Shown: positions 4,794 to 59,695, counted from the first letter of the stretch. The stretch is 59,859 bases of DNA from Candidatus Levyibacteriota bacterium (GCA_036788695.1 DAIQMY010000001.1:1-59859); one strand, 5' to 3'. Translations and numbers: made by a program. Notes: generated by a model not told the origin, from the letters alone.

Positions 4794-5006
4794 ATGACTA
4801 CTCAAAACATATCAATCGAGAACCTACCTGATCTATTAACAGTTCGTGAAGTAGCCCAATTATTACGCGTTTCCCCTCTTACTATTAAACGTTGGGGGAA
4901 AAGAGGAAAATTACCTGCTATTAGAATCAACTCAAGAGGAGATAGAAGGTATAAAAAAGAAGCGGTTCTCTATCTACTTGGCATACAACAGAAGACTCAG
5001 TTGTAG
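4794..5006 (+). CDS. excisionase-like helix-turn-helix DNA-binding protein (HTH_17/MerR-like)
   Basis: LLTVREVAQLLRVSPLTIKRWGKRGKLPAIRI..GDRRY pattern. Confidence 0.9.
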   Translation: MTTQNISIENLPDLLTVREVAQLLRVSPLTIKRWGKRGKLPAIRINSRGDRRYKKEAVLYLLGIQQKTQL

Positions 5007-5092
5007 TTTATCTTCATAAATCAGCATAATCTTCTTTTTTGCGGTACTAAAAAAAGAAGCGGTTCTCTATCTACTTGGCATACAACAGAAGA
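4953..5092 (+). repeat. 43-bp exact duplication of the HTH gene 3' end
   Basis: 4953-4995 is identical to 5050-5092; CTTCTTTTTT (5031-5040) pairs with the first 10 nt of the copy. Confidence 0.95.
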
Positions 5093-5183
5093 TTACGTAT
5101 CTGCATAGATTAGATTTATTTATCAGTGCTTTCTATACTTGCCCCTTATTTAGACTTTTAAGACACTTTTAGGAAAAAGTGGG

Positions 5184-5909
5184 CTATTTAATTCTTGAAG
5201 AAAACATTTCCTTGAAGGATAGTATGCCAAAGCTAATTAAGGCTAATTGTCTTCTCCATCTCCATGGCTGACGGAGCAATCTATATAGCCACTCAAGGCC
5301 AAATTTTCTTAGAGTTTCTGGCGCACGCGGAACATTTCCTGAAATATAGTCAAATGAACCTCCTACTCCCATGGCTATTTTTACAGGAATATTGGGAAGA
5401 TTCTTATATATCCACTCTTCTTGCTTTGGGTAACCCATAGCAACAAATAATACGTCTATGTTTTTCCCCTTGATTTTGCTTTCATTCCATATGTCTGAAG
5501 CATATGAAACATTCAGCCCGGAGTATTTTTTTTGTAAGCGCTTGGAAGCAAGCTCTGCTATACCGGCTTGTCCCCCAAAAAATCCCACAGAATAAGCACT
5601 TTTTGATAGTTTACCGCACAGTTTTTCCATGAGGTCAACTCCTGTTACACGCTGTATATGTCCCTTACCCATCATATAGGCACAGATGGTAACACCTACT
5701 CCGTCAGGCAAGGCTACTTCAGCTTCATTGAGTATCTTTTGAAAGTCGGGATTCCTCCTTGCATACATAATGATTTCTGGGTTAGGGGTTGTTATTTGTG
5801 CTCTACTACTGTGTTTCTTCAGAAAATCTACTATGTACTCTAAGATAGAACTCTCTGATGAGGTTGTAATCTTTGTCCCTAATAGTTTTACTGATTCCAA
5901 TTTAGTCAT
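5184..5909 (-). CDS. WecB/TagA/CpsF family glycosyltransferase
   Basis: TPNPE, LPDGVG, RVTGVDL, VAMGYPKQEEW, GVGGSFD, RAP...GLEWLYRL motifs. Confidence 0.95.
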   Translation of the reverse strand: MTKLESVKLLGTKITTSSESSILEYIVDFLKKHSSRAQITTPNPEIIMYARRNPDFQKILNEAEVALPDGVGVTICAYMMGKGHIQRVTGVDLMEKLCGKLSKSAYSVGFFGGQAGIAELASKRLQKKYSGLNVSYASDIWNESKIKGKNIDVLFVAMGYPKQEEWIYKNLPNIPVKIAMGVGGSFDYISGNVPRAPETLRKFGLEWLYRLLRQPWRWRRQLALISFGILSFKEMFSSRIK

Positions 5910-6162
5910 ATATTATTATAAGCTTTTTTATTAATTATAATATGTGGTACATATATATAATTTATGTATAATTTAATTATACTTCAATTTGGGCTTAAAA
6001 AACAATCTTTTAACTATTTTTATGTAATTATTTTCAATTCTAAAAACGTCATTATTTTTAAGCAAATTATAAGATTCAATATTTATAACTATAGGGATAA
6101 TTCGTGAAAAGTGTGTGAAAAATATATAATATTTATTCATATTAGAGGATATATTGTTCATG

Positions 6163-6266
6163 AAGGTAAACGATTACCCCTAGTCATTTTTCATGAATGG
6201 AGCGTTTTAGTCTTGCCCCAGCAAGGTAAACGATTACCCCTAGTCATTTTTATTAATGGAGCGTTT
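6163..6266 (-). repeat. 60-bp-period duplication of the mreB 3' end
   Basis: 29 bp identical (6163-6191 = 6223-6251) plus 12 bp identical (6196-6207 = 6255-6266); spans the TAG stop. Confidence 0.95.
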
Positions 6267-7250
6267 ATACAGCTCCAAGTTTTCAAGCGCCACTCCCGTA
6301 CCTCTTACTACACAATATAACGGATCCTCAGCTACATAAGATGGCACTCCAGTCTCACGGGTTATATACTTATCTAGATTGTGTAAAAGGCTTGTCCCCC
6401 CTGATAATACAATTCCCTTATCTATAATATCTGAAGCCAACTCAGGAGGTGTTATCTCAAATGTTTCACGAATAGCCGCAACTATTTGTTTTACTACGGG
6501 TAATAATGCATCATTCACCTCTACATTGCTTATCTCAATTGATCTGGGGAGTCCACTTACACTATCCCTTCCCTTAATTTCCATAGTTTTTTTCTCACTT
6601 GTAGAATCTATAAGCGCTGTGCCTACTTTTATCTTAATTTCCTCGGCAGTTCTATCTCCAATAAGTAAGTTAAATCGTTTACGAACATAGTTTGAAATTG
6701 CCTCCTCAAGCTTGTTGCCTGCTGCCTTGATAGACTTGTGGACTACAACCCCTCCCAAAGATATAACTGCAATATCTGTAGTTCCTCCTCCACTATCTAA
6801 AATCATATGCCCATTTGCCTGGGCAATTGGTATTTTAGCTCCTATAGCAGCAGCTAAAGGTTCTTCTATCAGATAAACTGCGCGCGCGCCTGAAGCCATA
6901 GTTGCATCTAATACCGCTCTTTTTTCTACCTGGGTAACACCAGAAGGAATACAAACCATAACTTCAGGTTTTATAAATCGGGATCTACCGGATACCTTAT
7001 CTATAAAATATGCCAACATGTCTTGAGTAATAACATAGTCTGCAATGACCCCATCTTTAAGGGGTCTTGTCGCGACTATATTCCCGGGAGTTCTTCCTAA
7101 CATATCTTTTGCTTCTTGCCCTACAGCAACTACTTTATTATCATCTGCCCGAACAGCAACTACGGTAGGTTCGTTTAATACCACTCCTTCACCTGCAACA
7201 TACACAAGAATATTTGCGGTTCCAAGATCAATTCCAATTCGCTTTGACAT
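6240..7250 (-). CDS. mreB: rod shape-determining protein MreB
   Basis: IGIDLGTAN, EEPLAAAIGA, DSGGGTTD, LSGGTSLL; start set at MSKRIG (7250). Confidence 0.97.
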   Translation of the reverse strand: MSKRIGIDLGTANILVYVAGEGVVLNEPTVVAVRADDNKVVAVGQEAKDMLGRTPGNIVATRPLKDGVIADYVITQDMLAYFIDKVSGRSRFIKPEVMVCIPSGVTQVEKRAVLDATMASGARAVYLIEEPLAAAIGAKIPIAQANGHMILDSGGGTTDIAVISLGGVVVHKSIKAAGNKLEEAISNYVRKRFNLLIGDRTAEEIKIKVGTALIDSTSEKKTMEIKGRDSVSGLPRSIEISNVEVNDALLPVVKQIVAAIRETFEITPPELASDIIDKGIVLSGGTSLLHNLDKYITRETGVPSYVAEDPLYCVVRGTGVALENLELYKRSINKND

Positions 7251-7434
7251 GTTCCCAAAAAATTTCATAGATAAAAAATAATATATCAAATATGTACTTT
7301 ACTATATCAAGTAAGAGGTTTTTGTGCTTCTTATATATAAACACTTGTACAAAAAAGATGCAAGGGGGTAGCAAAGAGTATTATTTTGCATGGTCTGGTA
7401 AAATTTTCTGTTTCTGTTTATAATTGTTATCTAT

Positions 7435-8628
7435 ATGAAGCGAATTGTCATAAGTACCTTTATTATCCTTTTCTTAATTCTTCTGGGTACTACTTTTGGA
7501 ATATTTTATGCTCGGGGATATAGGTTTGATCTGAATAACCCAAAAAGTATTCTTGAAGGAACCGGTCTTCTTGTACTCACAAGTAAACCTGATGGCTCCC
7601 GCGTGTTTATTAATAACCATTTAACTACTGCTACAAATAACACAATTAATCTGGCTCCAGGAGTATATGAAGTAAGGATAGAGCAAGATGGATATTTTCC
7701 ATGGAGAAAAACAATAGAAATAAAAAATGAAGCAGTATCTCAAGCCAATGCAACACTTTTCCCAATTGCGCCTAGACTTGAGGCAGTAACCACAACCGGA
7801 GCACGAAATCCTGCCTTAGACGGCAGCGGAAGCATTATTGCCTATACCGTGTCATCAGCATCTGCAGATAAAAATGGAATTTATACACTTAATATGAGCG
7901 CCCCCGCTATATTCGCGCTTGGCGGCGGAGCAAACCAAATAACAAATGATCTTGTTGCCCCATTCTCAAACTCAAACCTTATATTCTCCCCTGACGGTAG
8001 CCAATTACTCTCATCTATTTCTGCAAATCTTGCAACACCCACAAATTATCTTTTATCAAGTAGATCATTCAACGCAAATCCAAAAGATATAACAACTACC
8101 CTTCCACAAGTCCTTGCTGATTGGGATAAACAAACACAGTTGGCAAATAAAAAAACTATAGACTCGCTCCCAAAAAAGATCAGAACAGTCGCTCGGGCAA
8201 ACTTTTCAAACCCTATTATTTCTCCTCTTGAAGATAAAATCCTATATACGGCCTCAACAAGTGCTGTACTGCCCGTTCTTATTAACCCTCGACTTCCCGG
8301 AACCAACTCTACGCCAGAAATTCGCTCAATTAAAAAGGGTGATATTTATGTTTATGATATGAAGGAAGATAGAAACTACCTTCTCTCAACAAAAGAGGAA
8401 GCACCTATGAAATTCATGTGGCTATCTGATTCGTCACATTTAGTCTATGCAAAAAATACAAAAATAAACATAGTAGAATTTGATGGACAAAACATAACAA
8501 CAGTATACGCAGGACCTTTTGTAGACAGCTTTGTTTTCCCCTGGCCAGATGGCTCTAGTCTTATTATACTCACTAACTTAAATATCCCTGACGCACCAAA
8601 CAACCTTTACCGCATCAGTCTCAGATAG
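7435..8628 (+). CDS. PEGA domain-containing membrane-anchored protein
   Basis: N-terminal TM then GLLVLTSKPDGSRVFIN...LAPGVYEVRIEQDGYFPW (PEGA); beta-propeller-like remainder. Confidence 0.8.
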   Translation: MKRIVISTFIILFLILLGTTFGIFYARGYRFDLNNPKSILEGTGLLVLTSKPDGSRVFINNHLTTATNNTINLAPGVYEVRIEQDGYFPWRKTIEIKNEAVSQANATLFPIAPRLEAVTTTGARNPALDGSGSIIAYTVSSASADKNGIYTLNMSAPAIFALGGGANQITNDLVAPFSNSNLIFSPDGSQLLSSISANLATPTNYLLSSRSFNANPKDITTTLPQVLADWDKQTQLANKKTIDSLPKKIRTVARANFSNPIISPLEDKILYTASTSAVLPVLINPRLPGTNSTPEIRSIKKGDIYVYDMKEDRNYLLSTKEEAPMKFMWLSDSSHLVYAKNTKINIVEFDGQNITTVYAGPFVDSFVFPWPDGSSLIILTNLNIPDAPNNLYRISLR

Positions 8629-8673
8629 AAAAGAGCTTACCTGTAGTTACTACTCCTACGCTTTTTATAGCCA

Positions 8674-10395
8674 TTAATTTAATGCATTTTGAGGAATTAC
8701 TTTAGAGGAAGGAACTGCCACATCATTGGCTGATTGATCAAGTTTTGCAATAAATGGAAAACTAAATGATACTGTTGTTCCTTCCCCTTCCTGACTATCC
8801 AACCAAATCTTTCCGCCATGGGATTCAACAATTCCTTTTGAAATATAAAGACCCAATCCTGTTCCACCCTCTTTACGAAGACCGCTTGCTAGCTGCCCAT
8901 ATTTTGAAAAAAGAAGGGCTATTTTTTCCTGGGGTACTCCTACTCCATTATCATGTACAGAAACGGTTATTTGACCATTTTGTAATGCTGTAGTGGCAGT
9001 TATGAGACCGTTGTCAGGAGTAAATTTTAATGCATTTGAGAAAAGATTATTCAAGACCTGACCAATCCTTTGTGCATCAAACATGCTTTGTGCAATTGTC
9101 GTATCTAGATTTGTATTAATGGTAATATGACGTGTCTGAGCAACAAAAGAAAATGTAAGCGCCTTCTCTTTTACTAATTCATTAATACTTGAAGCAGTTT
9201 TATTTAATGTAAATTTCCCCGCCTCAAGCTTACTCATGTCCAAAATATCACCTATATCTGAAAGCATACGCTCTGTGGAATCATGAACTATATGAAGCAT
9301 TTTAGACATATCATCTTTTCCTAATTTCCCGTCTAACAACAATTGAGACGCTCCCTTAATAGATGTTAATGGAGCACGCAACTCGTGCACAACCATACTT
9401 GTAAACGTTTCACGCATTTTCTCGATATCACGTTCAAAAGTAACATCTTCCATAGTAACTGCTACCCCTATAATAGTCTGCGTACTATGAAGAAAAACAG
9501 GATTTAAGTACACTTTAAAGCACCGATCATAAATTGATACATCCTTTAATATGGTGCTCTTCCTCTGGATCGCAACATCTTTTATGTCCTTAACCAGGTC
9601 ATAATGCATACCAAAATGCGCAATAACCATGGCTGTATCTGGCTTACCTGCTACATGAAGAAAGTCTTTTGCCGCAGTATTAATAGCAGAGAGTTTGAGC
9701 GTGTCTTTTTCGATTAAAAATAATAGTGCTCCTGAAGTTAACGAGAATAAAAAAGAATCAAGCTTCCCTTTTTCTGTATTTATAACTCCCTCAATTTTCC
9801 CAACTGTCTCAAGTGTATTATCAACTGTTCTTCTCAGTAATGCCTTATCATCATCTGAAAAAGCATTTTTTTTGCTAGATGATATGCAGATTGCACCTAT
9901 ACATTGGTCATTTATGATAAGAGGCAATCCGTAAAATGAAGCTGGTTTTTCATTAAAGTAGACTGGGTTTACCTCTGAAAATTCTTTCCGAGCAGAAGCT
10001 ATAACAACAGTATCAGAGGGATTTTGTAGGCGCTCATAAATAAAGGCTAATGTATCCTTTTTAAGCTGGTCCAAAAAAACAGGACCCACAAACCCGTCCT
10101 CTATAGCTCTGTAGGTAATTGTTTTATTATCTAACAACGCATATGATAGTGCGCTGTGTTCAATGACGCGACCGGCAGTTTCTACAATAGTGCTTATGAT
10201 TGTGTTTATATTCAATGAATACCCGATTTGCTCAGCAACGGATTGGGATACTGAAAGCTCATATAGCCTTCTTGAAAGCTCCTTGTTTTTTTTCCGTAAT
10301 TCTTCTTCAGTCCCACGTAGTCTTTTTATTGAAAAAAGAGTTATTGATCCTAAAAATAACGCGAGAACTAAAAACAAAAAGAATGATTGAATCAT
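8674..10395 (-). CDS. sensor histidine kinase (TM, GAF-like, HisKA, HATPase)
   Basis: HELRAPLTSI H-box, NNLFSNALKF N-box, DNGVG and GTGLGL G-boxes. Confidence 0.95.
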   Translation of the reverse strand: MIQSFFLFLVLALFLGSITLFSIKRLRGTEEELRKKNKELSRRLYELSVSQSVAEQIGYSLNINTIISTIVETAGRVIEHSALSYALLDNKTITYRAIEDGFVGPVFLDQLKKDTLAFIYERLQNPSDTVVIASARKEFSEVNPVYFNEKPASFYGLPLIINDQCIGAICISSSKKNAFSDDDKALLRRTVDNTLETVGKIEGVINTEKGKLDSFLFSLTSGALLFLIEKDTLKLSAINTAAKDFLHVAGKPDTAMVIAHFGMHYDLVKDIKDVAIQRKSTILKDVSIYDRCFKVYLNPVFLHSTQTIIGVAVTMEDVTFERDIEKMRETFTSMVVHELRAPLTSIKGASQLLLDGKLGKDDMSKMLHIVHDSTERMLSDIGDILDMSKLEAGKFTLNKTASSINELVKEKALTFSFVAQTRHITINTNLDTTIAQSMFDAQRIGQVLNNLFSNALKFTPDNGLITATTALQNGQITVSVHDNGVGVPQEKIALLFSKYGQLASGLRKEGGTGLGLYISKGIVESHGGKIWLDSQEGEGTTVSFSFPFIAKLDQSANDVAVPSSKVIPQNALN

Positions 10396-10444
10396 AGATT
10401 TATTGTATACCTGATAGGAAGTGCGAGCAATACTAATATTAAAA

Positions 10445-10834
10445 CTACGATGCTGCAGGAGTCTTAGGAGGTGCTATCAGTGCGTTTACTTTTTGAACAA
10501 GGCTGTCTGGGGACACTTCGTATTTCATGATGTAATCTTGAGCGCCTAATGTTTTTGCTTCATTTACTGTCACATCATTTGAAAAATTTGAAAGCATAGA
10601 TATGGGAGTATTTGAGCTTGCACCAGTTGCGCGTATTGTTTTTAATGCTTCATTACCTGAAAGATCAGGCAGCATTTGATCTAACAATATCACATCAAAT
10701 TGTTCATTCTGTGCAAGGCTAATCCCGTTTGATGCGTCTCCCGCAATTTTAACCTCATACCCTGCGCTTTTAAGCGCCGTTTCAAAAACAGATGCTACAG
10801 CTAATTCATCATCTACTATTAATACCTTAGGCAT
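10445..10834 (-). CDS. stand-alone response regulator receiver
   Basis: VLIVDDE, ILLDQMLP, GAQDYIMK; no output domain. Confidence 0.93.
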   Translation of the reverse strand: MPKVLIVDDELAVASVFETALKSAGYEVKIAGDASNGISLAQNEQFDVILLDQMLPDLSGNEALKTIRATGASSNTPISMLSNFSNDVTVNEAKTLGAQDYIMKYEVSPDSLVQKVNALIAPPKTPAAS

Positions 10835-10956
10835 AATAATTTAAGTATACAGCATGTAATGCATAAACCGTAAGATTAATTCATCTTACTTATGCCTACA
10901 AATCAGTACTTATCTACCGTATCATCCCATTTTATAAATTGCAATATAGAGATCAA

Positions 10957-11808
10957 TTAATCCCTTACAAAAAATGTTTCCCCTGCAGTTACTATCTCTA
11001 TGTCTCCTTTTTCATCTGTACGGAAAAAAGGAACTGAATAGGTCTTGAGCAATTCAAGTATAACTGGGCTTGGATGATTATACCTATTGCGCAAACCTAC
11101 AGATAAAATATCAAGTTTACTTTTCACAAGTTGGAATGTACTATCATCTGCCCCTGTCTTGCTTCCATGATGAGGAAGCTTAAAAATATCCACACTCAAA
11201 CCGTTCGGAAAAATTGTATGCAACCTCTCTTTCTCTATATCCCCTGTTAAAAGCATTGTAAACTTTCCATATGAAATTAATTGAACCAGAGAAAAGCTAT
11301 TTGTACTCTCAGATGCCATATTTTGAGAAACAAATTCTTGAGTTGGCCAAAATGTCGCCAGAACAATTCCATCAGGAGTTATATACTTATCACCATAAAC
11401 TAAATAGCGGACTGGAATATGATCATCCTTTAGCTCCCGCATGAGAGACTTAAAAATACCTGTTTTACTATCTTTTTTAGGAATATTAAACTGTTTAATA
11501 CGATACCCCTTCAAAATATATCTGTATCCCCCAATATGATCAGCATCGGGATGAGTCGCGAAAGCAAGCTCAATTTCCCTATCCCATAAAGGCATATGCT
11601 TTGAAAGACAATCAAGAATTTTATCATTGGGACCCGCATCCACCAAAATATCTAAACCCTGAGGAGTTCGCATCAGAATACCATCCCCCTGCCCTACATC
11701 ACAAAAGTATACATGCAACCTCTTATCGCTATGCTGGATGAACTGAAAAAAGATAAGACCACCTACAACACAGAACGAGATAAAAAATACAGCTAATCGG
11801 ATTTTCAT
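10957..11808 (-). CDS. ComEC-associated metallo-beta-lactamase-fold nuclease
   Basis: DVGQGD, THPDADHIGG, LTGD, HHGSKT, NRYNHPS motifs. Confidence 0.92.
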   Translation of the reverse strand: MKIRLAVFFISFCVVGGLIFFQFIQHSDKRLHVYFCDVGQGDGILMRTPQGLDILVDAGPNDKILDCLSKHMPLWDREIELAFATHPDADHIGGYRYILKGYRIKQFNIPKKDSKTGIFKSLMRELKDDHIPVRYLVYGDKYITPDGIVLATFWPTQEFVSQNMASESTNSFSLVQLISYGKFTMLLTGDIEKERLHTIFPNGLSVDIFKLPHHGSKTGADDSTFQLVKSKLDILSVGLRNRYNHPSPVILELLKTYSVPFFRTDEKGDIEIVTAGETFFVRD

Positions 11809-13040
11809 CTAGACTTTTTCACTTTCCCCCGTAAGAATACAGTAACTCCCAGGGCAAAAAAATAATATGATAGAAGAAACGGAATAGATATAGTTGAAAA
11901 TTCAAAAAGAGGAAATGATCCAAAAAAGCCGGTAATCATTTCAAAATATAAAAGAAGAGGATAAGAAATATAGAGGACTGGAACTGATACAATAGGTAAA
12001 GTAATAGCACAAACTGCTGCAATTCCCCCTAAAATCATAAGAAACGGAATTGTCCAAAGTACAAGAGCGTTCGCAAGTATAGAAACGAAAGAGTACGAAC
12101 CAAATACCCCTGCCATAACAGGCAAGCTTCCTATTTGGGACGCAATAGAAGTTGTAATATCATCTGAAAATATTTTTGTATTTTTAAATCTCCACAGTGA
12201 ATCGAATAATGGTTTACAGAAAACAATCCCAAGAGTTGAAGTAAAAGAAAGCAAAAATCCAACATCAAAAATTATCTCCGGTTGAACAAAAAGCATAAGC
12301 CAGGCGGTTATACAAAGAGCAAAAATGCCTGAATTTTGCCTCCCAAGTATTCCTGCGCTAAATGCTACACTTGCCATAACGCTTGCCCTCACAATAGAAG
12401 GAGAAAAGCCAGATAACAAAGCGTAGTAAAAAACCCCAAATATCGCGATTACTAATGCTTGCCTTCTCATAAGAAAACGTGAAAATAACGCTATCAGAAA
12501 GGATGCAACCATAGTAACATTCATTCCAGATGCAGCAACCACATGCAAAACTCCTGCATTTTTAAATGAAGACTTTGTATCTGATGTGAAGTCCTGACTC
12601 CCCCCAAAAACAATTCCAAATAAAAGCGCTGCCTCATTTTGAGGCAAATAGGAAAAGAATGTTTTAGAAATTCGTGTTCGTATGTATGACGCAGTTCTAA
12701 AAAATATGTTTGTGCTCTTTGTGCTCTTTATGACCGGGTTATGAATAACTAGATAGCTTACTACTTTCTTATTCTTTGCTTCAAATGATTCCTTATCAAC
12801 TATACCCTCTATATATATTTCGTCACCGTAGTGGACTTCATTCTCTTGTGGTATACGAATTTGAACTGATGAGACAGAAAAGGTCTTGACAAATTTATTA
12901 TTCTTCGGCTCTGAAAGAAGGGTAATTTTTTCTTGTAATGTGTCCCCGGGTAAATACTTTTTTTCATACGTAAAAAAGAATGCATACCTAATCCCCAAAG
13001 TTAAAAGGAGCACTATACAAATCAGGATAATGAATTTCAT
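11805..13040 (-). CDS. comEC: ComEC/Rec2 competence membrane protein
   Basis: GVLHVVAASGMNV, SIVRASVM, GFLLSF; lacks a fused MBL domain. Confidence 0.92.
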   Translation of the reverse strand: MKFIILICIVLLLTLGIRYAFFFTYEKKYLPGDTLQEKITLLSEPKNNKFVKTFSVSSVQIRIPQENEVHYGDEIYIEGIVDKESFEAKNKKVVSYLVIHNPVIKSTKSTNIFFRTASYIRTRISKTFFSYLPQNEAALLFGIVFGGSQDFTSDTKSSFKNAGVLHVVAASGMNVTMVASFLIALFSRFLMRRQALVIAIFGVFYYALLSGFSPSIVRASVMASVAFSAGILGRQNSGIFALCITAWLMLFVQPEIIFDVGFLLSFTSTLGIVFCKPLFDSLWRFKNTKIFSDDITTSIASQIGSLPVMAGVFGSYSFVSILANALVLWTIPFLMILGGIAAVCAITLPIVSVPVLYISYPLLLYFEMITGFFGSFPLFEFSTISIPFLLSYYFFALGVTVFLRGKVKKSR

Positions 13041-13046
13041 AAATAC

Positions 13047-13673
13047 TCATGGGCTGATCAGATCTTTTATTTTTGAAAATGTAGCAGCGCCTACTATTTT
13101 TTTTGAAAGCAATTCATCAACAGATGCGTATGGTCTTCCTCCAATTATTTTCTGAGCAGTAACGGAACCTACCCCAGGAAGTGACTCTAGCTCAGATTGA
13201 GATGAGGCGTTAATGCTAACTAAGCTACTGCTTGTTTTATCCATGAAAACTTGCGTATTTGATTGAGGAATTTGAGTTTCTCCTGCTTTAGGAATATATA
13301 TCTTTGCCTCGTCTTTTACTATTGCAGCAAGATTAATAGATTTTGAGACATACTCATAGTCTGCTAGGGTGGTTATTCCTCCGGCGGCATCTAAGGCATC
13401 TTGGATACGGGAACTACTTTTTAATCGGTAAACGCCAGGATTTACTACCTCTCCTGAAACATCTACCATAATTTCTGTTTCTTTTTTTTCAGTTGATAAT
13501 CCTTTTACCTCCTCCTCTGATTTAAATTCTATCTTACCACTCGGACTTAAAAGAAATTGGATCAAACCAATACTTAAGAATATCAAACCACCGGCTACCA
13601 AAGCTGAGAAAAGTAAATTTTGCCGTATTAAGATTAGGACGCTTTCACCTATTGAATTTGTTTCTTTATCCAC
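13047..13673 (-). CDS. comEA: ComEA DNA-binding protein (SLBB + HhH)
   Basis: VDVSGEVVNPGVY, INASSQSELESLPGVGSVTAQKII. Confidence 0.93.
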   Translation of the reverse strand: MDKETNSIGESVLILIRQNLLFSALVAGGLIFLSIGLIQFLLSPSGKIEFKSEEEVKGLSTEKKETEIMVDVSGEVVNPGVYRLKSSSRIQDALDAAGGITTLADYEYVSKSINLAAIVKDEAKIYIPKAGETQIPQSNTQVFMDKTSSSLVSINASSQSELESLPGVGSVTAQKIIGGRPYASVDELLSKKIVGAATFSKIKDLISP

Positions 13674-13740
13674 TTTTCATAAAGCGTATTAGAATACATG
13701 AGAATATTCAAGTATTAAATTAGAGTATAGCTAGCTAGAG

Positions 13741-16700
13741 CTAGATTACGAAGTTTATAATTTTGAGAGGTATATAAATAGTTTTTTTAATTTCAGCTTC
13801 CGAAAGATACTTATCTACCTCTATCCGTGCTTGGTTTTCTAAATAGGTACGATCAGGCATTGGTTCCTCAACTTTTATTACCATTTCACCTCGTTTTTTC
13901 CCGTTTACTTGGATTACTATAGTTATCTGCTCTGAGGCAAGATACTTTTCATCCCACTCTGGCCACCCTGACAGATGAATTGAATCTTTTTGACTTAACA
14001 CACTATGCCACAACTCATCAGTCATAAACGGTGCAAACGGTGCAAGCAGCTTTAAAAATACTTCTGCCTCTTGTCTTGAAACCTCTTTATGGCTAGATAA
14101 AAAATTGTACCACTCCATAAGCCCTGCAATTGCAGTGTTATATTTAAATTCTGATATATCCTGCGTTACTCTCTTTATAGTCTTATGCATCATCCCTAAA
14201 CCTTCATCTGAAAGCTTAAAATCAGTAACAATTGAAAACTTCTTCCATACTCGTCTGATAAACCGATTCATACCCTCAATTCCTGAATCTCTGAAATCTC
14301 CGCCATCTGAGAAGGGACCTAAAAACATTAAGTATGCTCGAAGCGTATCAGCTCCATATTTCAGAATATATTCATCAGGCACCACTACGTTCCCTTTTGA
14401 TTTGCTCATTTTCGCTCCATCCTTAATAATAAGCCCATGAGCAAAAAAACTTTCAAAAGGTTCTTCAAAATCCACAAATTTTAAATCGTACAGTACCATC
14501 GATATAAATCGACTATATAAAAGGTGTAGCACTGAATGCTCTGCTCCGCCAATATACTTTTTAACAGGAAGCCAACGTTTTTGGATGGTTTTATCCCATG
14601 GAGTAAAATCTTTTTGATCTATTTTGATACCTCTGGATATACTTTTTGCATTTTTGTTATCACCAGTTATGAGAGGGTCTGAGATATAACCCAAGAAATA
14701 CCATGCACTATCCAGAAAAGTATCAGACACATCTGTTTCACGCTTTGCCTTACCATTACAGGAAGGGCAACTCGTTTCATAAAATTCAGGATGATTCGCA
14801 AGAGGAGAAAGCCCAGTACCCATTGGCTTCCAATCATCTACGTCAGGAAGTGCTATGGGTAAATCCTCAAGTGGCGCGGAAAACCATCCAGGCATTTCAA
14901 TTTTTTCCCCTTTACCAGATTTTTTACATGATTCACAAAATATCATAGGAATTGGTGGACCCCAATATCTCTGTCTTGAAATAAGCCAGTCACGTAAATG
15001 GTACTGAACCTTCTTTTGACCAATACCAGCTTCTATTAATTTGTTTACTACAGTATTCATGCCCTCAGCCACTTGCAACCCATTCCAAGCGCCAGAGTTA
15101 ATTAGCTTTCCTTCTCCCACATAAGCTCCCAGTTCAAGATTTGAATCTTTTGCTGTTATAACTTCTCTTATAGGAAGCTTGTGTTTTTTTGCAAAATCAT
15201 AATCTCTTTGATCATGTGCAGGAACTGCCATAATCGCACCTGTCCCATACCCCATGAGTACATAGTCTGCTACCCAGACTGGAATTTTCTCGTTATTTAT
15301 AGGATTTATCACATACTGACCTGAGAAAACACCTGTCTTTTCCTTTTCATCAGCAGTCCTTTCATTTTCTGACTTATTGTGTGCCCTTTTTACATATTCT
15401 GATACTTTATTCTCCACTCCCTCTCTGAGAAGTGAAGAGACAAATGGGTGCTCGGGAGATACGACAAGGAATGTTGCACCAAATAAAGTATCCGGACGAG
15501 TTGTAAAGACTTCAATTGAAGGAAGAAGGTGTTTTACTATTTCCGGTTCTGTCTCACCGGATAGATGATCTCCCTGTGCTACTACTTCAATAATCTTCCC
15601 GCCTATCTTTTCTCTTATAAAGTCCGCCCTTCCACCCGGAACGGCTGTATCATTAAGTGCTTTGAGTAATATAACTTCCCCCGCATTCTTTTTTATTTTT
15701 TCAAAATCAAACTTCCAATCAAATGTTTCCTCAAATGGTCTTTTATGATCCAGGAAGCCTGGCTCGGCAAAACCTGCTGCAAGCACTAAGCCACGAATGG
15801 GAACATCTAATCTTTCTACTACTTTTAAGGCAATAACTGATCCCAAGCTGTGACCAAATAAAATTGTATCTGCATCAAAAGAGTAATTATCTATAACATA
15901 CTGTACCTGCTCATCAACTGTTGGATTTTCTGTTTTTGGGAGGTTTGGAACCATTACAGTATGTCCCTTTTTCTCCAACTCAGCCTTAAGCCAAGGATGG
16001 AAGTTAGATGTAGAATCAGCGCCAAAACCATGAAGGTTGATAAATCGGTACTTTTTATCTATTGGGAACTCTATCACTGCACCAGTCTTTCTGCCAATCC
16101 AGTTACGTTGGGAAATTTTCACCTTCTCAGTCCAATCTAATGTCTCAATATTCTGAAGAAGTCTTTCCGCATAATCTGTAATTTTAAAAAACCATTGTTC
16201 TAAGTCTTTTTTTTCAACTACAGAAGAACAACGTTCGCATTTCCCATCAATTACCTGCTCGTCAGACAATACCGTCTTGCAGGATGGGCACCAATTCACT
16301 TCTGCTTTCTTACGGTATGCCAAGCCTGCTTGAAACAATTTTATAAATAACCACTGTGTCCATCTATAATATAAAGGATCATATGTCTCCAAGGTCCTAC
16401 TCCAGTCAAATGAGTTGCCAATACTCCTTAACTGTCTGTAATAGTTCTCCTGAGAAAGCTTTGCTTGATCTTTGGGGTGACGCCCCACCTTGAGGGCATA
16501 GTTTTCTGAATGAATCCCAAATCCGTCTAAACCGATTGGCTCAAAAACGTCACTCCCCTTCATTCTATTAAACCGAGCGTATACATCAGCACCCGTAAAG
16601 GCATACATATTCCCCACATGAAGCCCTTCCGCAGAAGGGTAAGGGAACATCATTAAGTTAAAATAAGGTTTACTAGCGTTGAGTAAATCAGGCGTAAATG

Positions 16701-16770: not shown

Positions 16771-16864
16771 AGATATTTTCAAGTATAGCATGCCTGCATT
16801 TATTTCTAAATACCTAAAGGGTAATTTGCTTGCAGATTTATCTTTTTGTGAATATAATTTATAT

Positions 16865-18177: not shown

Positions 18178-18425
18178 ATAGTATTGATTTATCAACCTAA
18201 ATTATACTATATATTTCTTGTCACTAAATTAAATAGATTGCCAAAATTCACTGAATTCTCAAGCTCATTTAGTTGTTACATTTTGATATATTTAGTATTC
18301 CCTCAGCATATATATCATTTTTACCGCTTAACGTGGCTAATTTCTAAAATATTTCTACTATTTAGAGGGTTGTGGAGGTTAAATTATCACTTCACTTTTT
18401 ACTGTTGCTATACTACACTATATAT

Positions 18426-24541: not shown

Positions 24542-24563
24542 AGATAAAATGACCATTTATAAA

Positions 24564-27991: not shown

Positions 27992-28021
27992 GCACTACTT
28001 TTGGATATACGCTGCAAGAAT

Positions 28022-28536
28022 TTAGCCTAAGGTTAATAAAAACTCATTGTTATCTGAAAGAAACGATGAAACCCTAGTCTTTTCCGAGGTTTAGTAAGAA
28101 CACATTGTTATCTGGAGCGTAGCGGAAGAAACGATGATACCCTACCTAATCTTTGCCTAAATTCAATAAAAACTCATCGTTATCTGAAAGAAACGATGAA
28201 ACCCTAGTCTTTTCCGAGGTTTAATAAGAACACATTGTTATCCGAAGGAAAGGATGAAAACCTAATCTTTGCCTAAATTAAGTAAAAATTCATCGTTATC
28301 CGAAGGAAAGGATGATTACCCTAGTCTTTTCCGAGGTTTAATAGAAATTCATCGTTATCTGAAAGAAACGATGATACTCTAAGAAGTTTAATAAAAATTC
28401 ATCGTTATCCGAAGGAAAGGATGATTACCCTAGTCTTTTCCGAGGTTTAATAGAAATTCATTGTTATCTGGAGCGTAGCGGAAGAAACGATGAAACCCTA
28501 GTCTTTTCCGAGGTTTAATAAGAATTCATCGTTATC
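28022..28536 (-). repeat. tandem array of rho 3'-end copies with hairpin spacers (gene tail plus 8 copies)
   Basis: Units at 28022-28054, 28074-28112, 28146-28184, 28204-28242, 28262-28300, 28321-28359, 28379-28409, 28430-28468 and the gene tail 28498-28536; spacers 19-33 nt. Confidence 0.97.
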
Positions 28537-29805
28537 CTCAGTCTTACTTAATCGTTCTATAAGCACTTCTGCTCGTTCGTCTGGACTCAAAACATCAATC
28601 ATGCGTCTCATCATTACAACCTTTTTCAGCTTATCTTCAGGCATTAAAAGCTCTTCTTGGCGTGTGCCTGACTTCTCTACGTTAATAGCTGGAAATACGC
28701 GTCTTTCAGCAAGTCTTCTGTCTAAATGAAGCTCCATGTTTCCCGTACCCTTAAACTCCTCAAAAACTAAATCATCTAATCTGGAACCTGTGTCTACCAG
28801 TGCCGTACCTATTATAGTAAGGGATCCTCCATCTTCACAATTTCTAGCAGCCCCAAAGAACCGTTTTGTTGGATAAAGAGCAGCAGGATCATATCCTCCT
28901 GAAAGTGTGCGTCCGGATGGCTCAATTGACAAATTATATGCGCGAGCAAGCCTGGTAATTGAGTCTAGAAGAATAACCACGTGCTTACCATTCTCAACTA
29001 ATCTCTTTGCCCGATCTAGGGCAATCTCCGCAACTCTTGTCTGAATTTCAGGTGATTCATCAAAATTTGAGGCTACTACATCACCTTTGACGGAACGTGC
29101 GATATCTGTTACCTCTTCAGGGCGCTCTCCTATTAAGACCGCCATTAAATGAACGTCTGGGAAATTAGCGATAATACCTGAGGCTATATCCTTCAAAATA
29201 GTGGTTTTTCCAGCCTTAGGAGGTGATACAATCATACCTCTCTGTCCAAATCCAATAGGCGCGACTAAATCAATAATACGTGTTGAGAGTGGATATTTTT
29301 TAGTTGATAACTTGATCTGTGTATTTGGGTAGATAGGTGTTAAATCCTCAAAATAAGGTCTTTTTGTAGACTTATCTGCATCTACTCCGTTTACTCTGTT
29401 GATTTTCAATAATCCATAATACCGCTCGTTGTCTTTTGGTGGACGCCCTAAGCCCTCAACTAAATCCCCCGGTCTGAGCCAAAAACGACGAATTTGTGAA
29501 GATGATATATAGATATCATGATCTGATGGTCTGAATTTTGGCCTCAAAAAACCATGCCCTTCATGTTGAATATCTAAAATTCCGGAAACCACTTCTGTGC
29601 CTTCATCTCTATCCTGCGCACTCATATTGTTCTCACGGACGAAACCTTGATTTCTATCTTCAATTACTGGTTCTTCTCTGGGTGAAACTTGAGCTTGATC
29701 CATATTCCCTGACACTACACCTTCTGTGCCTGTATCCTGAGGAGCTGAGCCTATTGGGGCATCATTAGATGCTAATTTTCTAGTTGTTCGTTTTGTGTAT
29801 GGCAT
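28498..29805 (-). CDS. rho: transcription termination factor Rho
   Basis: GILDI...[47 protein letters not shown]. Confidence 0.98.
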
Positions 29806-37080: not shown

Positions 37081-37128
37081 GGAATAGTTGCCCTATGCCC
37101 TAATTTCTCCAAAAAAGACCTGTCAAAT

Positions 37129-41180: not shown

Positions 41181-41316
41181 ATATCCTAAGCCTGAGTAAG
41201 GATTCCCCACGGCTTTAGAAACGTAGTTTCGCAAGACGTAGTAACTAGAATATCCTAAACAAGAGTAAGTACAGAAGTATGATAGCTCCAACCTGAGTAA
41301 GGATTCCCCACGGCTT
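41181..41316 (-). repeat. degenerate duplication of the 3' end of the 41245..41706 gene
   Basis: 25 bp identical (41191-41215 = 41292-41316) and ATATCCTAA at 41181-41189 = 41250-41258, i.e. a copy with an internal deletion. Confidence 0.88.
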
Positions 41317-41706
41317 ATCCAACCGTACATTCATCGCATGTTGCAACTTATATACATATTTTGACCACCCTACTAATGGGTCTTTTATGTTTAAGATAAA
41401 ATAAGGAGCGGTAAGCCAATCCGGAAGCTGAGAGAGAAAAATCGCTGTAAATAAGTAAAGATAATTTGTCTGCCCAAAAACATATGTATATACTAAAATT
41501 GATACAATCACGCTTATAATAACATCCAAACTTGCCTCATAAAATAATCTCTTTTTTGTTTTTTCAGCATGATGCGTGCCTGCATCCCAATGGGGAATTA
41601 TATCGCATACAAAATGAGACGCAAAAGCTAGGGGAAGCCCTATGTATGGATTGTTAAATTTTGCAATTAGTATTGTTGCAACTAATGCGTGTCCCGTTGC
41701 GGTCAT
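41245..41706 (-). CDS. membrane protein, metal-dependent hydrolase-like
   Basis: TGHALV, ASHFVCDIIPHWD, SQLPD, LQH motifs; TATAAT lies 6 nt before ATG 41706. Confidence 0.75.
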   Translation of the reverse strand: MTATGHALVATILIAKFNNPYIGLPLAFASHFVCDIIPHWDAGTHHAEKTKKRLFYEASLDVIISVIVSILVYTYVFGQTNYLYLFTAIFLSQLPDWLTAPYFILNIKDPLVGWSKYVYKLQHAMNVRLDKPWGILTQVGAIILLYLLLFRIF

Positions 41707-54459: not shown

Positions 54460-54596
54460 TTTTGCCCCTCAGTCGCGGGTTCTTGACCTTAAATTTTCGT
54501 TGGAAAATCGCAGGGCAAGCGTTAAAAGTAAAATATACTTTACGTAAAACTTAGGTTATTAAAACTGTTTTGCCCCTCAGTCCTTGGCCTTGACCT
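54460..54596 (-). repeat. partial duplication of the 5S rRNA 3' end and flank
   Basis: TTTTGCCCCTCAGTC at 54460-54474 and 54568-54582; CTTGACCT at 54482-54489 and 54589-54596. Confidence 0.7.
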
Positions 54597-54701
54597 ATCT
54601 TCCCCTAGTGTGTAACACTAAAGTATTGTAGGCGCTGGTGCGTTTCACTTCTCTGTTCGGAATGGGAAGAGGTGGTACCACACCGCTCCAAAGACCAAAG
54701 A
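54581..54701 (-). rRNA. rrf: 5S rRNA
   Basis: CCCATTCCGAAC and AAGTGAAAC conserved segments; terminal helix; ends approximate. Confidence 0.93.
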
Positions 54702-54770
54702 CTCAAGGGCAAAACTTTTCAAACAAACTTCAAACTTATTCTTTCCTACCATTTGGTTTCTTAAAACCCA

Positions 54771-58130
<3,360 letters not shown>

Positions 58131-58432
58131 TAGATTCTAAAAAACCAATTCAAATAAAACCATGTGTTCGGCAAAGAAACATGGAACCCCGCCGAGCGGG
58201 ATTTTTGGCCTAGTTGTTTGTCACGTTCATATAATTGAACGTAATTTACCACGTTCAAAGACTGAACGTGGTCGTTTGTTTGTTATTTTCTCCCAATTAT
58301 TAATGAGCAAAAAACTTTCTCGTGTATTCGTACCTGACGGTGAGTAAAATTGCACTCAGCCGCTCAGGTACCAGTACACGAGCATTTCATATTTGATGTG
58401 CCTGCACTGAGGTCCGCCAAGGCGGACCGAAG

Positions 58433-58505
58433 TGGACCCAAGGAGATTCGAACTCCTGACCTCCTCATTGCAAATGAGGCGCACTACCAACTGTGCTATG
58501 GGCCC
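58433..58505 (-). tRNA. tRNA-Ala(TGC)
   Basis: GGGCCCA acceptor with G3.U70, anticodon stem CCTCA/TGAGG, loop TTTGCAA. Confidence 0.97.
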
Positions 58506-58726
58506 GAACGCGTTAGCGTGAGGGTCCACAAGGTTCTGAATTGTATTCAATTCAGGTTCTTATGGGCCAGACTAAAACATGAAAAAAATTTAACCCTGGA
58601 AATGTACAAGAAGTAAACTTTAAAACAATGAGGTAGAAACAGGGATCGACGTAGTTGTCGATTTGTAAAAGTTAATTTTTATTACCATCATAAACTATTC
58701 TTGATTTCCGAAAGGTAAAAACTATT

Positions 58727-59470
58727 CTAGCCAGATTTTAGCCTCTTGTCAAGCACTAGTTTAGGTTGTGGTACAGGTGTTTTTACACGGGGGAAATTAA
58801 CGTCAAAAAAGGCAAAGCCGTCCCGATTCATTGTCTCTCTATATTCTATGCCCAAAGCTCCTTTCGTATTCTTTTCATACTGAAAACCCTTTCCAAAGTT
58901 TGGGCTCCGTACTTCTTGCCATTCAGATGAAGGATTAGAAGTAGGTGGCTTCTGAAAAAACGTTTCATATGAACTAATCATGTCCTCCTTGCCCATCTGT
59001 GCCTTACTCCACCACGCCCGACCACCCCCACTTTCCATCATGTCACTTCTATCAGGATCTATTGCCCCATCTAAACCTAACCTTGTATGAATAGACAAAG
59101 TTTTTGCACCCTCCTCATGATGATGAACATAAACAGAAACAGTTGAATTTATCTCTTTATCTGAATTAACGTTCTGTGGCCAATACAGTTCATACGTTTG
59201 TAATGCCTCGTAAACATAATTAAAAACAAAGTGTTTTGAGAAGTCTTCGGGGTTTGCTTGTGTGATAAAAACTTTAAACGAATTCCAAAAGTCTGCATTT
59301 TTTCTCATGTCTACACGCTTATTCATGAGTTGAAGAAAATATGCTGCAACAATAGGGACTTCCGGTTTTTTAACTTCAGGGGAATCCTCTATTCCTGCGT
59401 TTATCCCAAGTGCAGCAGCACCAACAACAGCCGCGCCACCAATCAATAATTCACGCCTGCTCAAACCCAT
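58727..59470 (-). CDS. hypothetical protein with twin-arginine-like N-terminus
   Basis: MGLSRRELLIGGAAVVGAAALG; TATAAT lies 7 nt before ATG. Confidence 0.75.
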   Translation of the reverse strand: MGLSRRELLIGGAAVVGAAALGINAGIEDSPEVKKPEVPIVAAYFLQLMNKRVDMRKNADFWNSFKVFITQANPEDFSKHFVFNYVYEALQTYELYWPQNVNSDKEINSTVSVYVHHHEEGAKTLSIHTRLGLDGAIDPDRSDMMESGGGRAWWSKAQMGKEDMISSYETFFQKPPTSNPSSEWQEVRSPNFGKGFQYEKNTKGALGIEYRETMNRDGFAFFDVNFPRVKTPVPQPKLVLDKRLKSG

Positions 59471-59516
59471 GAGTTTGATTATATTCCCACGATAGAACTA
59501 AATCAAACTGAAGAAA

Positions 59517-59695
59517 TTACTTAGGAGATTGTTGATTTCGAAGCCATTTCTCTACATCAAGGCCAGCCCCTGAGATTACTCAGGGCGAGTAGCTGACCTT
59601 AGGATGCATTCTGCATCCTGAACGGAAAGGTTTCTACAGTAGCGGGGAACTAAGGTTGTTGATTTCGAAGCCATTTCTCTACATCAAGGCCAGCC
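59517..59695 (-). repeat. 40-bp exact duplication of the trxB 3' end with hairpin spacer
   Basis: 59529-59568 is identical to 59656-59695; the copy ends QQSPK*TAA, the gene ends QQP*TAG. Confidence 0.95.

What the first reader, a model, noticed from the sequence alone, without database searches (positions are those of the whole stretch)
4953..59695. Window-wide system of gene 3'-end copies joined by hairpin spacers
Seen: six unrelated loci (HTH gene, mreB, rho, the 41245 gene, 5S, trxB) are followed within 15-110 nt by a copy of their own 3' end. In each case the spacer contains a reverse complement of the start of the copy, often around an inner hairpin, so spacer and copy fold together. Established: integrative elements that insert into gene 3' ends carry a replacement tail, and HUH (IS200/IS605, RAYT) transposases and integron integrases act on folded ssDNA hairpins. 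Inference: an undescribed miniature element or recombination process swaps gene tails and leaves the older tails downstream. No enzyme for it is identified in this window. All five protein genes end in TAG, but many unaffected genes here do too.
Basis: partly seen in the sequence, partly recalled or inferred. Interest (0 to 1): 0.92.

Follow-up and report, generated by a model that had tools for sequence, protein, structure and literature searches.

The report
Tandem copies of gene tails
In this uncultured Levybacteria genome the last few codons, the stop codon and a short downstream stretch of several unrelated genes and of 5S rRNA are repeated head to tail, and these small unstable arrays are best explained by local DNA copying errors, not by a new mobile element.

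Summary
The duplications are real at all six loci. The rho locus is an array of about 9 units. Apart from one promoter duplicate and one in-gene domain repeat, they are the only close direct repeats in the window.

The hairpin claim holds only in part. Complementarity between the spacer and the start of the copy is significant for HTH and rho. For mreB the short arm lies inside the repeat. It is at chance level for the 41245 gene, trxB and 5S. Where copies have diverged in relatives, the arm pairs with its own upstream tail, so the stop codon sits in the hairpin loop.

Related Levybacteria genomes show minisatellite behaviour:
- Unit number differs: mreB 1, 2 or 3; rho 3 to 9; the 41245 gene 1, 1.35 or 2.35.
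- Copies within one genome share substitutions, which indicates concerted evolution.
- Contigs encoding an identical Rho protein start the array with different units.
- A single-copy relative shows that the distal trxB copy is the ancestral tail.

Silent tails differ from the active tail only synonymously (p<5e-6). Spacers are specific to each locus. The window encodes no recombinase, HUH enzyme or reverse transcriptase.

Best reading: arrays of gene 3' ends produced by hairpin-prone slippage and unequal recombination. This is a new variant of a known kind, of moderate interest.

The parts
4794..5006 (+). HTH_17/MerR-type gene (70 aa). Its last 18 codons form the proximal (active) tail unit.
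   Evidence: Pfam. ORF. The identical protein occurs in the sister genome.
4953..4995 (+). HTH proximal repeat copy (43 nt), inside the gene.
   Evidence: In the sister genome L173 the same two substitutions occur in both copies.
4996..5049 (+). HTH spacer. It holds the last 3 codons and TAG, the 3' arm TCTTCTTTTTT (5030-5040) complementary to the repeat start, then GCGGTACTA.
   Evidence: 10-nt complement, p=0.002. An A-T to G-C compensatory difference is seen against L001.
5050..5092 (+). HTH distal silent copy. It is identical over 43 nt and then diverges with no in-frame stop nearby.
6223..6266 (-). mreB proximal unit: the last 8 codons, TAG, and GGGTAATCGTTTACCTT.
   Evidence: (MreB_Mbl).
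6208..6222 (-). mreB junction filler GCTGGGGCAAGACTA. Together with the preceding CTT it forms the small hairpin CTTGC-TGGG-GCAAG.
   Evidence: The same filler lies between the units of the sister genome.
6163..6207 (-). mreB distal unit. It is frameshifted (KRSIHEK*), and with its flank it is orthologous to the single unit of L001.
28007..28537 (-). rho tail array of about 9 units of 50-72 nt. The first unit is the real end of rho (gene 28498-29805). Units are synonymous versions of [12 protein letters not shown], and the last is degenerate (DNNEFLLTLG*).
41245..41706 (-). Conserved 153-aa membrane-type protein of unknown function (P0121). The proximal repeat copy lies at 41292-41316, 44 nt before the stop.
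41181..41244 (-). Downstream of the 41245 gene: the spacer TTACTACGTCTTGCGAAACTACGTTTCTA with the small hairpin GAAAC-TAC-GTTTC, then a truncated silent copy (41191-41215 plus 41181-41190).
   Evidence: 2.35 units in the sister genome; single copy with a hairpin in JAGOPA.
54582..54699 (-). 5S rRNA. Its 3' end and flank (about 54568-54596) form the proximal copy.
   Evidence: Rfam..
54460..54567 (-). 5S spacer and distal copy. The spacer holds GCTTGCCCT, GCG and the hairpin ATTTTC-CAAC-GAAAAT. The copy AGGTCAAGAACCCGCGACTGAGGGGCAAAA lies at about 54460-54488.
   Evidence: the same layout in the sister genome, with the distal copy diverging.
59653..59859 (-). 3' part of trxB, which runs off the window. 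The proximal repeat copy is at 59653-59695 and the new stop TAG at 59650-59652.
59569..59652 (-). trxB spacer. It has two perfect hairpins (AGGATGCA-GAA-TGCATCCT and CCCTGAG-TAAT-CTCAGGG) and three degenerate copies of the ancestral tail end CCTAAGTAAT.
59517..59568 (-). trxB distal copy, which is the ancestral tail (…QQSPK, stop at 59517-59519). It is continuous with the flank found in the single-copy relative.
   Evidence: L189, L190.

Best explanation
Each locus is a small locus-specific tandem array (a minisatellite) that straddles a gene's 3' end.

Anatomy.
- One unit holds the last 8-25 codons, the stop codon and 15-85 nt of downstream sequence.
- In the mreB, rho and HTH families, and in the ancestor of the 41245 gene, that downstream part carries an arm complementary to the beginning of the unit. 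Each unit is then a hairpin with the stop codon in its loop, usually followed by a second small hairpin.
- The first unit is the real gene tail. Later units are silent copies, and the most distal one is the oldest and is degenerate.

Shown.
- The units are repeated head to tail.
- Their number differs between close relatives.
- Copies within a genome share substitutions.
- The unit that comes first differs between strains with the same protein.
- The distal trxB and mreB copies are ancestral.
- Silent tails stay coding-competent.

Inferred mechanism.
- A hairpin formed in the nascent strand, or another template switch, makes the polymerase re-copy from the hairpin's 5' foot. This gives the first duplication.
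- Only duplications that include the stop codon leave the gene intact, so they survive.
- Once two copies exist, slippage, unequal recombination and gene conversion expand, contract and homogenise the array.
- A contraction can move a silent unit into first position. Silent units are therefore indirectly under protein-level selection, which would explain why their differences are only synonymous.
- No dedicated element or enzyme is needed.
For: - Whole-unit tandem duplication: the sister genome CAYQNH has two perfect 101-nt units plus the truncated one at the 41245 gene. It has three mreB units against two in the window.
- Copy-number variation at rho: 9 units in the window, 6 in L170, 5 in L161, 4 in L166 and 3 in L168, although L166 and L168 encode the same Rho protein. 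First units differ in L161 vs L162 and in L166 vs L167.
- Many short-read contigs end inside these arrays.
- Concerted evolution: both HTH copies carry the same two substitutions in L173. All mreB units carry CGA in L173 and CGC in the window. All 41245 copies carry GGGGGATAC in L175 and GGGGAATCC in the window.
- The distal copy is ancestral for trxB and for mreB.
- The repeat's 5' boundary coincides with a pre-existing hairpin foot. The single-copy JAGOPA ortholog already pairs AAGCCGTGGG with CCCACGG-T-CTT across the stop.
- Each arm matches its own tail.
- Spacers are locus-specific and built locally.
- Silent tails differ only synonymously, p<5e-6. They nevertheless show some decay, such as frameshifts, deletions and D>N or E>V changes.
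- No recombinase, HUH enzyme or reverse transcriptase is encoded in the window.
Against: - Silent tails in L081 and L002 are 25-30% diverged from the active tail, and every difference is synonymous. Frequent turnover should homogenise such copies. A slippage-only model must therefore add selection for unlike neighbours or an outside source of alleles.
- A short motif, YTT-GCG followed by a small A/T-rich hairpin and then TA, recurs at unit junctions in unrelated loci and in a distant relative (window HTH, 41245 and 5S; L001; L002 twice; L081 twice). Plain slippage does not predict it.
- The density, 6 loci in 60 kb, and the 6:0 bias for 3' ends over 5' ends are higher than in most of the other Patescibacteria loci scanned.
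- The founding event was not observed for any locus. Three window loci (41245, trxB, 5S) now have no significant hairpin.
Confidence: 0.58

Rival explanations
1. The extra copy is a selected RNA device. The 3' arm can pair either with the translated tail or with the identical downstream copy. This would give a translation-sensitive switch (terminator, stabiliser or processing site) at transcript 3' ends, and arrays would be kept because they work better.
For: - The arm and tail co-vary across species and across units.
- G-U pairs are tolerated where copies diverge (L001, and L081 unit 2).
- The genome has no excess of canonical intrinsic terminators.
- Stop-spanning hairpins are mildly enriched: 4 genes with 9 bp or more against 0.95 expected.
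- The arrays persist across species at rho and HTH.
Against: - Where copies differ, the arm does not pair with the downstream copy.
- Folds of the window loci are no better than shuffles.
- Copy number is very unstable and drops to one in close relatives with no visible replacement.
- 5S is not translated.
- An RNA role does not explain why whole silent tails, loops included, keep the peptide.
- Perfect arms could also result from template-switch correction of quasi-palindromes.
Confidence: 0.12
2. Allele stacking by natural transformation. DNA from a diverged strain recombines with one end in the gene body and joins illegitimately just upstream of the resident tail. The donor tail and its hairpin then sit in front of the recipient's tail.
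For: - It explains the synonymous-only divergence between stacked tails at once.
- Both tail types of L002 mreB occur as active tails in other lineages: the CGx-TCC type in the window and L173, and the AGG-TCA type in L001 and L003.
- Each arm matches its own tail.
- The e14/icd precedent shows replacement tails carrying conservative differences (PMC13626634).
- From my own knowledge, not tested here: Patescibacteria are thought to depend on DNA uptake.
Against: - Random illegitimate joins should give duplications of many lengths. Here units are short and start at the hairpin foot.
- Perfect within-genome unit duplications and concerted evolution are internal events.
- The trxB spacer is derived locally.
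- The donor and recipient events were not observed.
Confidence: 0.12
3. An undescribed miniature element or dedicated enzyme (an HUH, tyrosine-recombinase or reverse-transcriptase type acting on folded DNA) inserts at gene 3' ends with a long target duplication and brings a new stop.
For: - At trxB, 87 nt of hairpin-rich sequence plus a 40-nt duplication are present relative to an empty site, and the sequence supplies a new stop.
- The junction motif YTT-GCG plus a small hairpin recurs in unrelated loci and lineages.
- The 3'-end bias is strong.
Against: - Spacers share no family-level similarity.
- The arms are copies of local sequence.
- The trxB spacer contains degenerate copies of the local tail end.
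- Duplication lengths vary from 25 to 60 nt.
- Arrays grow by whole units.
- The window holds no candidate enzyme. The 1541-aa protein has only integrase N-terminal SAM-like domains and no catalytic domain.
- TTTGCG is not enriched at gene ends in general.
Confidence: 0.1
4. Assembly artefact: strain variants or hairpins were mis-joined by a de Bruijn graph assembler.
For: Short-read contigs often break at these loci. Read-level support could not be checked here.
Against: - The same architectures, with diverged sequence, are present in independent assemblies of several species.
- Units within an array differ in sequence in ways an artefact would not create.
- The window is identical to another deposited contig.
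Confidence: 0.02

Closest known systems
Bacterial minisatellites / VNTR loci such as mycobacterial MIRUs (my own knowledge; not retrieved here)
   Same: Units of tens to about 100 nt are repeated head to tail at gene junctions. Unit number differs between close strains, copies are homogenised, and unit ORFs overlap the neighbouring gene's stop.
   Different: MIRUs are one dispersed family with a shared sequence. Here every array is made from its own gene's tail, each unit is a stop-codon-spanning hairpin, silent units keep the gene's C-terminal peptide with synonymous changes, and the density is about one locus per 10 kb.
Integrative elements that insert in a gene's 3' end and carry a replacement tail (e14 or phage 21 in E. 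coli icd, leaving the icdC fragment; PMC13626634)
   Same: A proximal active tail and a distal older tail, differing by conservative or synonymous changes. Recombination between the two copies gives a chimeric gene end.
   Different: The copies are separated by only 15-87 nt of locally derived sequence, with no integrase or element. There are up to 9 copies, and they arise by whole-unit tandem duplication.
Template-switch / quasi-palindrome mutagenesis and small inverted triplications (PMC13334657, found but not read in full; otherwise my own knowledge)
   Same: Perfect short inverted repeats next to direct duplications, with a direct-inverted-direct layout and junction fillers that form hairpins.
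   Different: Only about 10 nt of each unit is inverted. The events are fixed, recurrent at gene 3' ends, and followed by array dynamics.
REP/BIME, PATE or MITE hairpin repeats, and integron attC sites
   Same: Hairpin-forming sequences lying just after stop codons.
   Different: There is no genome-wide consensus, no terminal inverted repeats, no RAYT, TnpA or IntI in the window, and the hairpin arm is a copy of the local coding sequence.
Tandem repeats of Borg elements (PMC9879509, found)
   Same: Lineage-specific abundance of young, fast-evolving tandem direct repeats.
   Different: By that paper's title and abstract (the paper was not read), Borg repeats create new intrinsically disordered regions in proteins. 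Here the repeats lie across the stop codon and leave the protein unchanged.

Membership tests
Minisatellite / VNTR | Head-to-tail repetition of a unit of about 10-150 nt | tested here: met
   rho array of about 9 units. Two perfect 101-nt units plus a partial unit in L175. Three mreB units in L173.
Minisatellite / VNTR | Unit number polymorphic between closely related genomes | tested here: met
   mreB 1/2/3, the 41245 gene 1/1.35/2.35, rho 3-9, trxB 1/2. L166 and L168 differ although they encode the same Rho protein.
Minisatellite / VNTR | Concerted evolution of the units | tested here: met
   Lineage-specific substitutions are shared by all copies at HTH, mreB and the 41245 gene.
Integrative element with replacement tail (e14/icd type) | An element with an integrase lies between the two copies of the gene end | tested here: not met
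   Spacers are 15-87 nt. No ORF lies between the copies.
Integrative element with replacement tail (e14/icd type) | The distal copy is the original tail, and the copies differ conservatively | tested here: met
   trxB, mreB. Synonymous-only differences.
MITE / REP / PATE (transposase- or HUH-mobilised hairpin repeats) | Dispersed copies sharing a consensus sequence and defined ends | tested here: not met
   BLAST of every spacer against the window and about 1.4 Mb of related loci found no match beyond 13-18 nt. The rest of the genome was not searched.
MITE / REP / PATE (transposase- or HUH-mobilised hairpin repeats) | A cognate transposase or RAYT in the genome | not testable with these tools
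   None is present in the 60-kb window. The remaining genome was not available.
Intrinsic (Rho-independent) terminator | A G+C-rich stem of 5 bp or more with a short loop, followed by a T run | tested here: not met
   The scan of 1-20000 gave 13 sites against 11.6 expected, none at the HTH or mreB units. Loops are 12-60 nt and no T run follows.
Diversity-generating retroelement (TR/VR at a gene 3' end) | A reverse transcriptase nearby and adenine-specific differences between the copies | tested here: not met
   The window has no reverse transcriptase. Differences between copies involve all four bases and are synonymous.
Programmed translational bypass (T4 gene 60 type) | Matched take-off and landing codons that join two reading-frame segments into one product | tested here: not met
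   The gene is complete at the first stop and matches the family's C-terminus. Copies encode the same peptide, and unit spacings of 58-130 nt are mostly not multiples of 3.

The most novel reading that the evidence does not exclude
Levybacteria and related Patescibacteria have a structure-guided copying process. A polymerase, nuclease or recombinase activity would act on stop-codon-spanning hairpins and be marked by the recurrent YTT-GCG plus small-hairpin junction. It would actively regenerate and stack gene tails. The silent, coding-competent tails would then be a maintained reservoir that is exchanged with the active tail, rather than debris from slippage.
Probability: 0.15. Interest if true: 0.8.

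Novelty: new variant of a known kind. Interest (0 to 1): 0.5.

Why it matters
- If the reading is right, some ultra-small bacteria tolerate and keep many unstable repeat arrays directly on the ends of essential genes (rho, mreB, trxB, 5S rRNA). Silent copies of the gene tail stay translatable.
- This is a clean natural case of indirect selection on non-expressed DNA through recombination.
- It is also a practical warning. These loci break short-read assemblies, change the annotated C-termini between strains, and could serve as strain markers.
- If the recurrent junction motif reflects a dedicated activity, it would point to a new way of remodelling gene ends.

Tried and rejected
- Dispersed element family: spacers gave no matches.
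- A general TTTGCG signal at gene ends: 34 copies, almost all inside genes. Related regular expressions found only the focal loci.
- Known RNA families: only rRNA and tRNA passed Rfam gathering thresholds.
- Canonical terminators: no excess.
- Spacer as a diverged copy of the downstream flank: local alignments were not significant (p 0.09-0.5). The best trxB hit did show a local copy of the ancestral tail end.
- Stop-codon read-through or hopping into the next copy: the frames do not fit and the peptide would be the same.
- DGR, CRISPR-like array, integron: the defining parts are missing.
- TAG dependence: 17 of 47 stops in the window are TAG, and relatives use TAA in the same units.
- Exact look-ups of the window's 216-aa ORF and of the 349-aa MreB ORF found nothing, probably because the ORFs as read from the window start upstream of the starts used in the collection's gene calls: the collection holds a 153-aa version of the first, and the sister genome's MreB is called at 342 aa.
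- The peptide screen hit at IMPDH is the N-terminus of the next gene and is a false positive.
- Literature searches found no description of this arrangement.

Full report
**Source and setting**

The window comes from an uncultured Candidatus Levybacteria genome (Microgenomates, Patescibacteria).
- MreB and Rho relatives carry those names in public records.
- The window is 100% identical to ENA contig ERZ794922 NODE_17 over the 20.5-kb stretch compared (L172), and a second stretch of that contig (L188) has the same trxB locus.
- G+C is about 37%.
- The scan for canonical intrinsic terminators over 1-20000 gave 13 sites against 11.6 expected from shuffles, none at the focal loci.

**Check of the observation**

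An exhaustive list of exact direct repeats of 12 nt or more lying within 400 nt of each other, the repeat finder and a mismatch-tolerant self-BLAST agree. The long ones are:

| Locus | Copies in the window | Match |
|---|---|---|
| HTH | 4953-4995 / 5050-5092 | 43/43 |
| mreB | 6163-6207 / 6223-6266 | 45 nt, 96% |
| rho | array 28007-28537 | about 9 units |
| 41245 gene | 41191-41215 / 41292-41316 | 25/25 |
| 5S | 54460-54474 / 54568-54582 | 15/15 |
| trxB | 59526-59568 / 59653-59695 | 42/43 |

- The only others are a duplicated promoter-like box (24564 / 24628) and a LysM domain repeat inside a gene.
The ORF at 38539-39903 is RadA.
- All six duplications include or abut a gene's 3' end. None spans a start codon.
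- The duplication part of the finding is therefore confirmed and is far beyond chance.

**The hairpin claim**

I compared the first 15 nt of each copy with its spacer and with shuffled spacers.
- Significant: HTH (10 nt, p=0.002) and rho (9 nt, p=0.001).
- Not significant: the 41245 gene, trxB and 5S (4 nt each). In mreB the short arm lies within the repeat.
- RNA folds of the window loci are not better than shuffles, z from -0.2 to -1.9.
- In relatives the hairpins are strong. L002 mreB has z -4.8 and L081 rho has z -5.8, with perfect arms of 8-14 nt.
- Where successive tails have diverged, the arm matches its own upstream tail and not the next copy: 10 vs 4, 9 vs 3, 14 vs 5.
- The module is therefore: 5' arm in the coding tail, stop codon in the loop, 3' arm, usually followed by a small second hairpin.

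**Comparison with relatives**

| Locus | Window | CAYQNH (about 95% nt identity) | CAYMYC (about 85%) | JAGOPA (about 82%) |
|---|---|---|---|---|
| HTH | 2 | 2 | 2, about 20% diverged | not seen |
| mreB | 2 | 3 | 1 | not seen |
| rho | 9 | 6 | 5 | 4 (3 in L168) |
| 41245 gene | 1 + truncated | 2 perfect 101-nt units + truncated | not seen | 1 |
| trxB | 2 | not seen | not seen | 1 |

L002 (MreB 84% identical) has three mreB units. L081 (Rho 72% identical) has two rho units.
- Contigs that encode the identical Rho protein differ in unit number (L166 vs L168) and in which unit is first (L161 vs L162; L166 vs L167).
- Many short-read contigs stop inside the arrays.
- Copies evolve in concert. 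Both HTH copies of L173 carry the same two substitutions relative to both window copies. All mreB units have CGA in L173 and CGC in the window. All copies at the 41245 gene have GGGGGATAC in L175 and GGGGAATCC in the window.

**Polarity**

- In the single-copy JAGOPA genome trxB ends …QQSPK* and continues into the same flank as the window's distal copy. The distal copy is therefore the original tail. The proximal unit, ending QQP*, is the newer one.
- For mreB, the window's distal frameshifted unit plus its flank aligns with the single unit of L001.
- For the 41245 gene, the family's conserved C-terminus equals the proximal tail. The distal copy is a version with an internal deletion.
- The single-copy JAGOPA ortholog already has a stop-spanning hairpin, AAGCCGTGGG with CCCACGG-T-CTT. 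Its 5' foot is exactly where the window's repeat begins.

**Origin of the spacers**

- They match nothing else in the window or in about 1.4 Mb of related loci.
- The 87-nt trxB spacer contains three degenerate copies of the ancestral tail end (CCTTAGTT, CCTAAGGT, CCTGAGTAAT against the ancestral CCTAAGTAAT), an internal GCTACT repeat and two perfect palindromes.
- It is therefore local sequence reworked by duplication and palindrome formation, not an imported element.

**The most unusual property: silent tails stay translatable**

- L081 rho tails differ at 10 of 39 nt, L002 mreB tails at 9 of 30, and two window rho unit types at 8 of 39. None of these differences changes an amino acid. The chance under random substitution is below 5e-6 in each case.
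- At least 11 synonymous versions of [12 protein letters not shown] occur in the rho arrays of four genomes. Two main types are shared across species and tend to alternate.
- Silent units are not perfectly protected. Some carry D>N or E>V changes, a lost stop, a frameshift or a deletion. The L001 HTH silent tail has 5 amino-acid changes in 17.

**Explanation**

The simplest account that fits all of this is a set of locus-specific minisatellites.
- A hairpin in the nascent strand, or another template switch, makes replication restart at the hairpin's 5' foot.
- Only duplications that include the stop codon keep the gene intact, which explains the location.
- Once two copies exist, slippage, unequal recombination and gene conversion change the unit number and homogenise the copies. 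The oldest distal unit recombines only through its 5' part and decays elsewhere.
- A contraction can move a silent unit into first position. Changes that damage the peptide are then removed indirectly.
- The founding event, the role of the hairpin and the indirect selection are inferences. The array behaviour is shown.

**What this account does not explain well**

- The depth of the synonymous divergence between neighbouring units. This may need selection for unlike neighbours or import of alleles by recombination with other strains.
- The recurrent junction YTT-GCG plus a small A/T-rich hairpin plus TA, seen in unrelated loci and in L081. The motif was defined after seeing the data, and TTTGCG is not enriched at gene ends overall.
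- The high density and the 6:0 bias for 3' ends.
- These points leave room for the rival explanations. The first is a selected RNA device at transcript 3' ends. The second is stacking of foreign alleles after DNA uptake. The third is a dedicated structure-guided activity. I rate the element or enzyme reading at about 0.1 and an artefact at 0.02.

**Comparison with what is known**

- The arrays behave like bacterial VNTRs, and all three VNTR criteria tested were met.
- They resemble the icd/icdC arrangement left by e14 only in polarity and in conservative differences. There is no element between the copies.
- They are not REP, MITE or PATE repeats, attC sites, DGR targets, CRISPR-like arrays, canonical terminators or bypass sites. 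At least one defining feature of each failed, or its defining parts are missing from the window.
- I found no paper describing gene-tail arrays with coding-competent silent copies. Absence from the library searched is weak evidence.

**Verdict**

A real, reproducible and locally dense phenomenon. I class it as a new variant of a known kind, with moderate interest (0.5).

Noticed in passing
window 54770-58129 (-): The 23S rRNA match spans 3360 nt against a 2925-position model, so the gene carries about 430 nt of insertion(s). The sequence upstream of it holds tRNA-Ala (58432-58505) and then a protein gene, with no 16S rRNA. The rRNA genes therefore appear unlinked.
   Followed up: no
window 13741-16791 (-): The leucyl-tRNA synthetase (1016 aa) has an alpha/beta-hydrolase domain (residues about 249-407) inserted in its catalytic domain, just upstream of the editing domain.
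   Followed up: no
window 19916-24541 (+): A 1541-aa protein has two N-terminal phage-integrase SAM-like domains but no detectable catalytic integrase domain. It is conserved in L161, L166 and L170.
   Followed up: partly
window 24561-24644 (+): A promoter-like box TCTTATACTTGACATTA is duplicated 64 nt apart between the 1541-aa gene and the TPR gene. A similar duplicate exists in L161 (14937-15028).
   Followed up: partly
window 31200-34000: A G+C-rich island (0.49 against about 0.37) holds ORFs without Pfam matches. The corresponding genes differ in length between relatives (288-502 aa in L161-L171), so the region is variable.
   Followed up: no
window 4283-4793; L001 8655-11552; L173 934-3542: Relatives carry about 2.6-2.9 kb with two extra genes (696 and 172 aa) between bacA and the HTH_17 gene. 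The window lacks them, which suggests an insertion/deletion polymorphism next to an excisionase-like HTH gene.
   Followed up: no
window about 36990-37090 (-): A long inverted repeat, AAAGAGCATCGCTTTCG … CGAAAAGCAATGCTCTTT, lies in an intergenic region and is conserved in L161, L166 and L170. It could be a small RNA or a terminator.
   Followed up: no
L175 15488-15853: The sister genome has a 121-aa gene of the 23S_rRNA_IVP / bAvd-like family inserted between the ABC-transporter genes. No such gene is called in the window (L172).
   Followed up: no
window 58727-59470 (-): A 247-aa protein with no Pfam match is 100% identical between the window and JAGOPA010000001, although the genomes differ by about 18% in nucleotide sequence. 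This is unusually strong conservation, or a recent transfer.
   Followed up: no
window 37600-38436 (-) 3' end; L017 1176-1363; L090 downstream of rho: Related single observations.
- The PIN-domain gene has a perfect 10-bp stop-spanning hairpin (TTTGGGAAAA / TTTTCCCAAA) without duplication.
- L017 has a 42-nt copy of a tRNA 3' end plus its terminator, 145 nt downstream.
- L090 has a duplication of about 60 nt of the rho end flanking a palindromic repeat.
   Followed up: no
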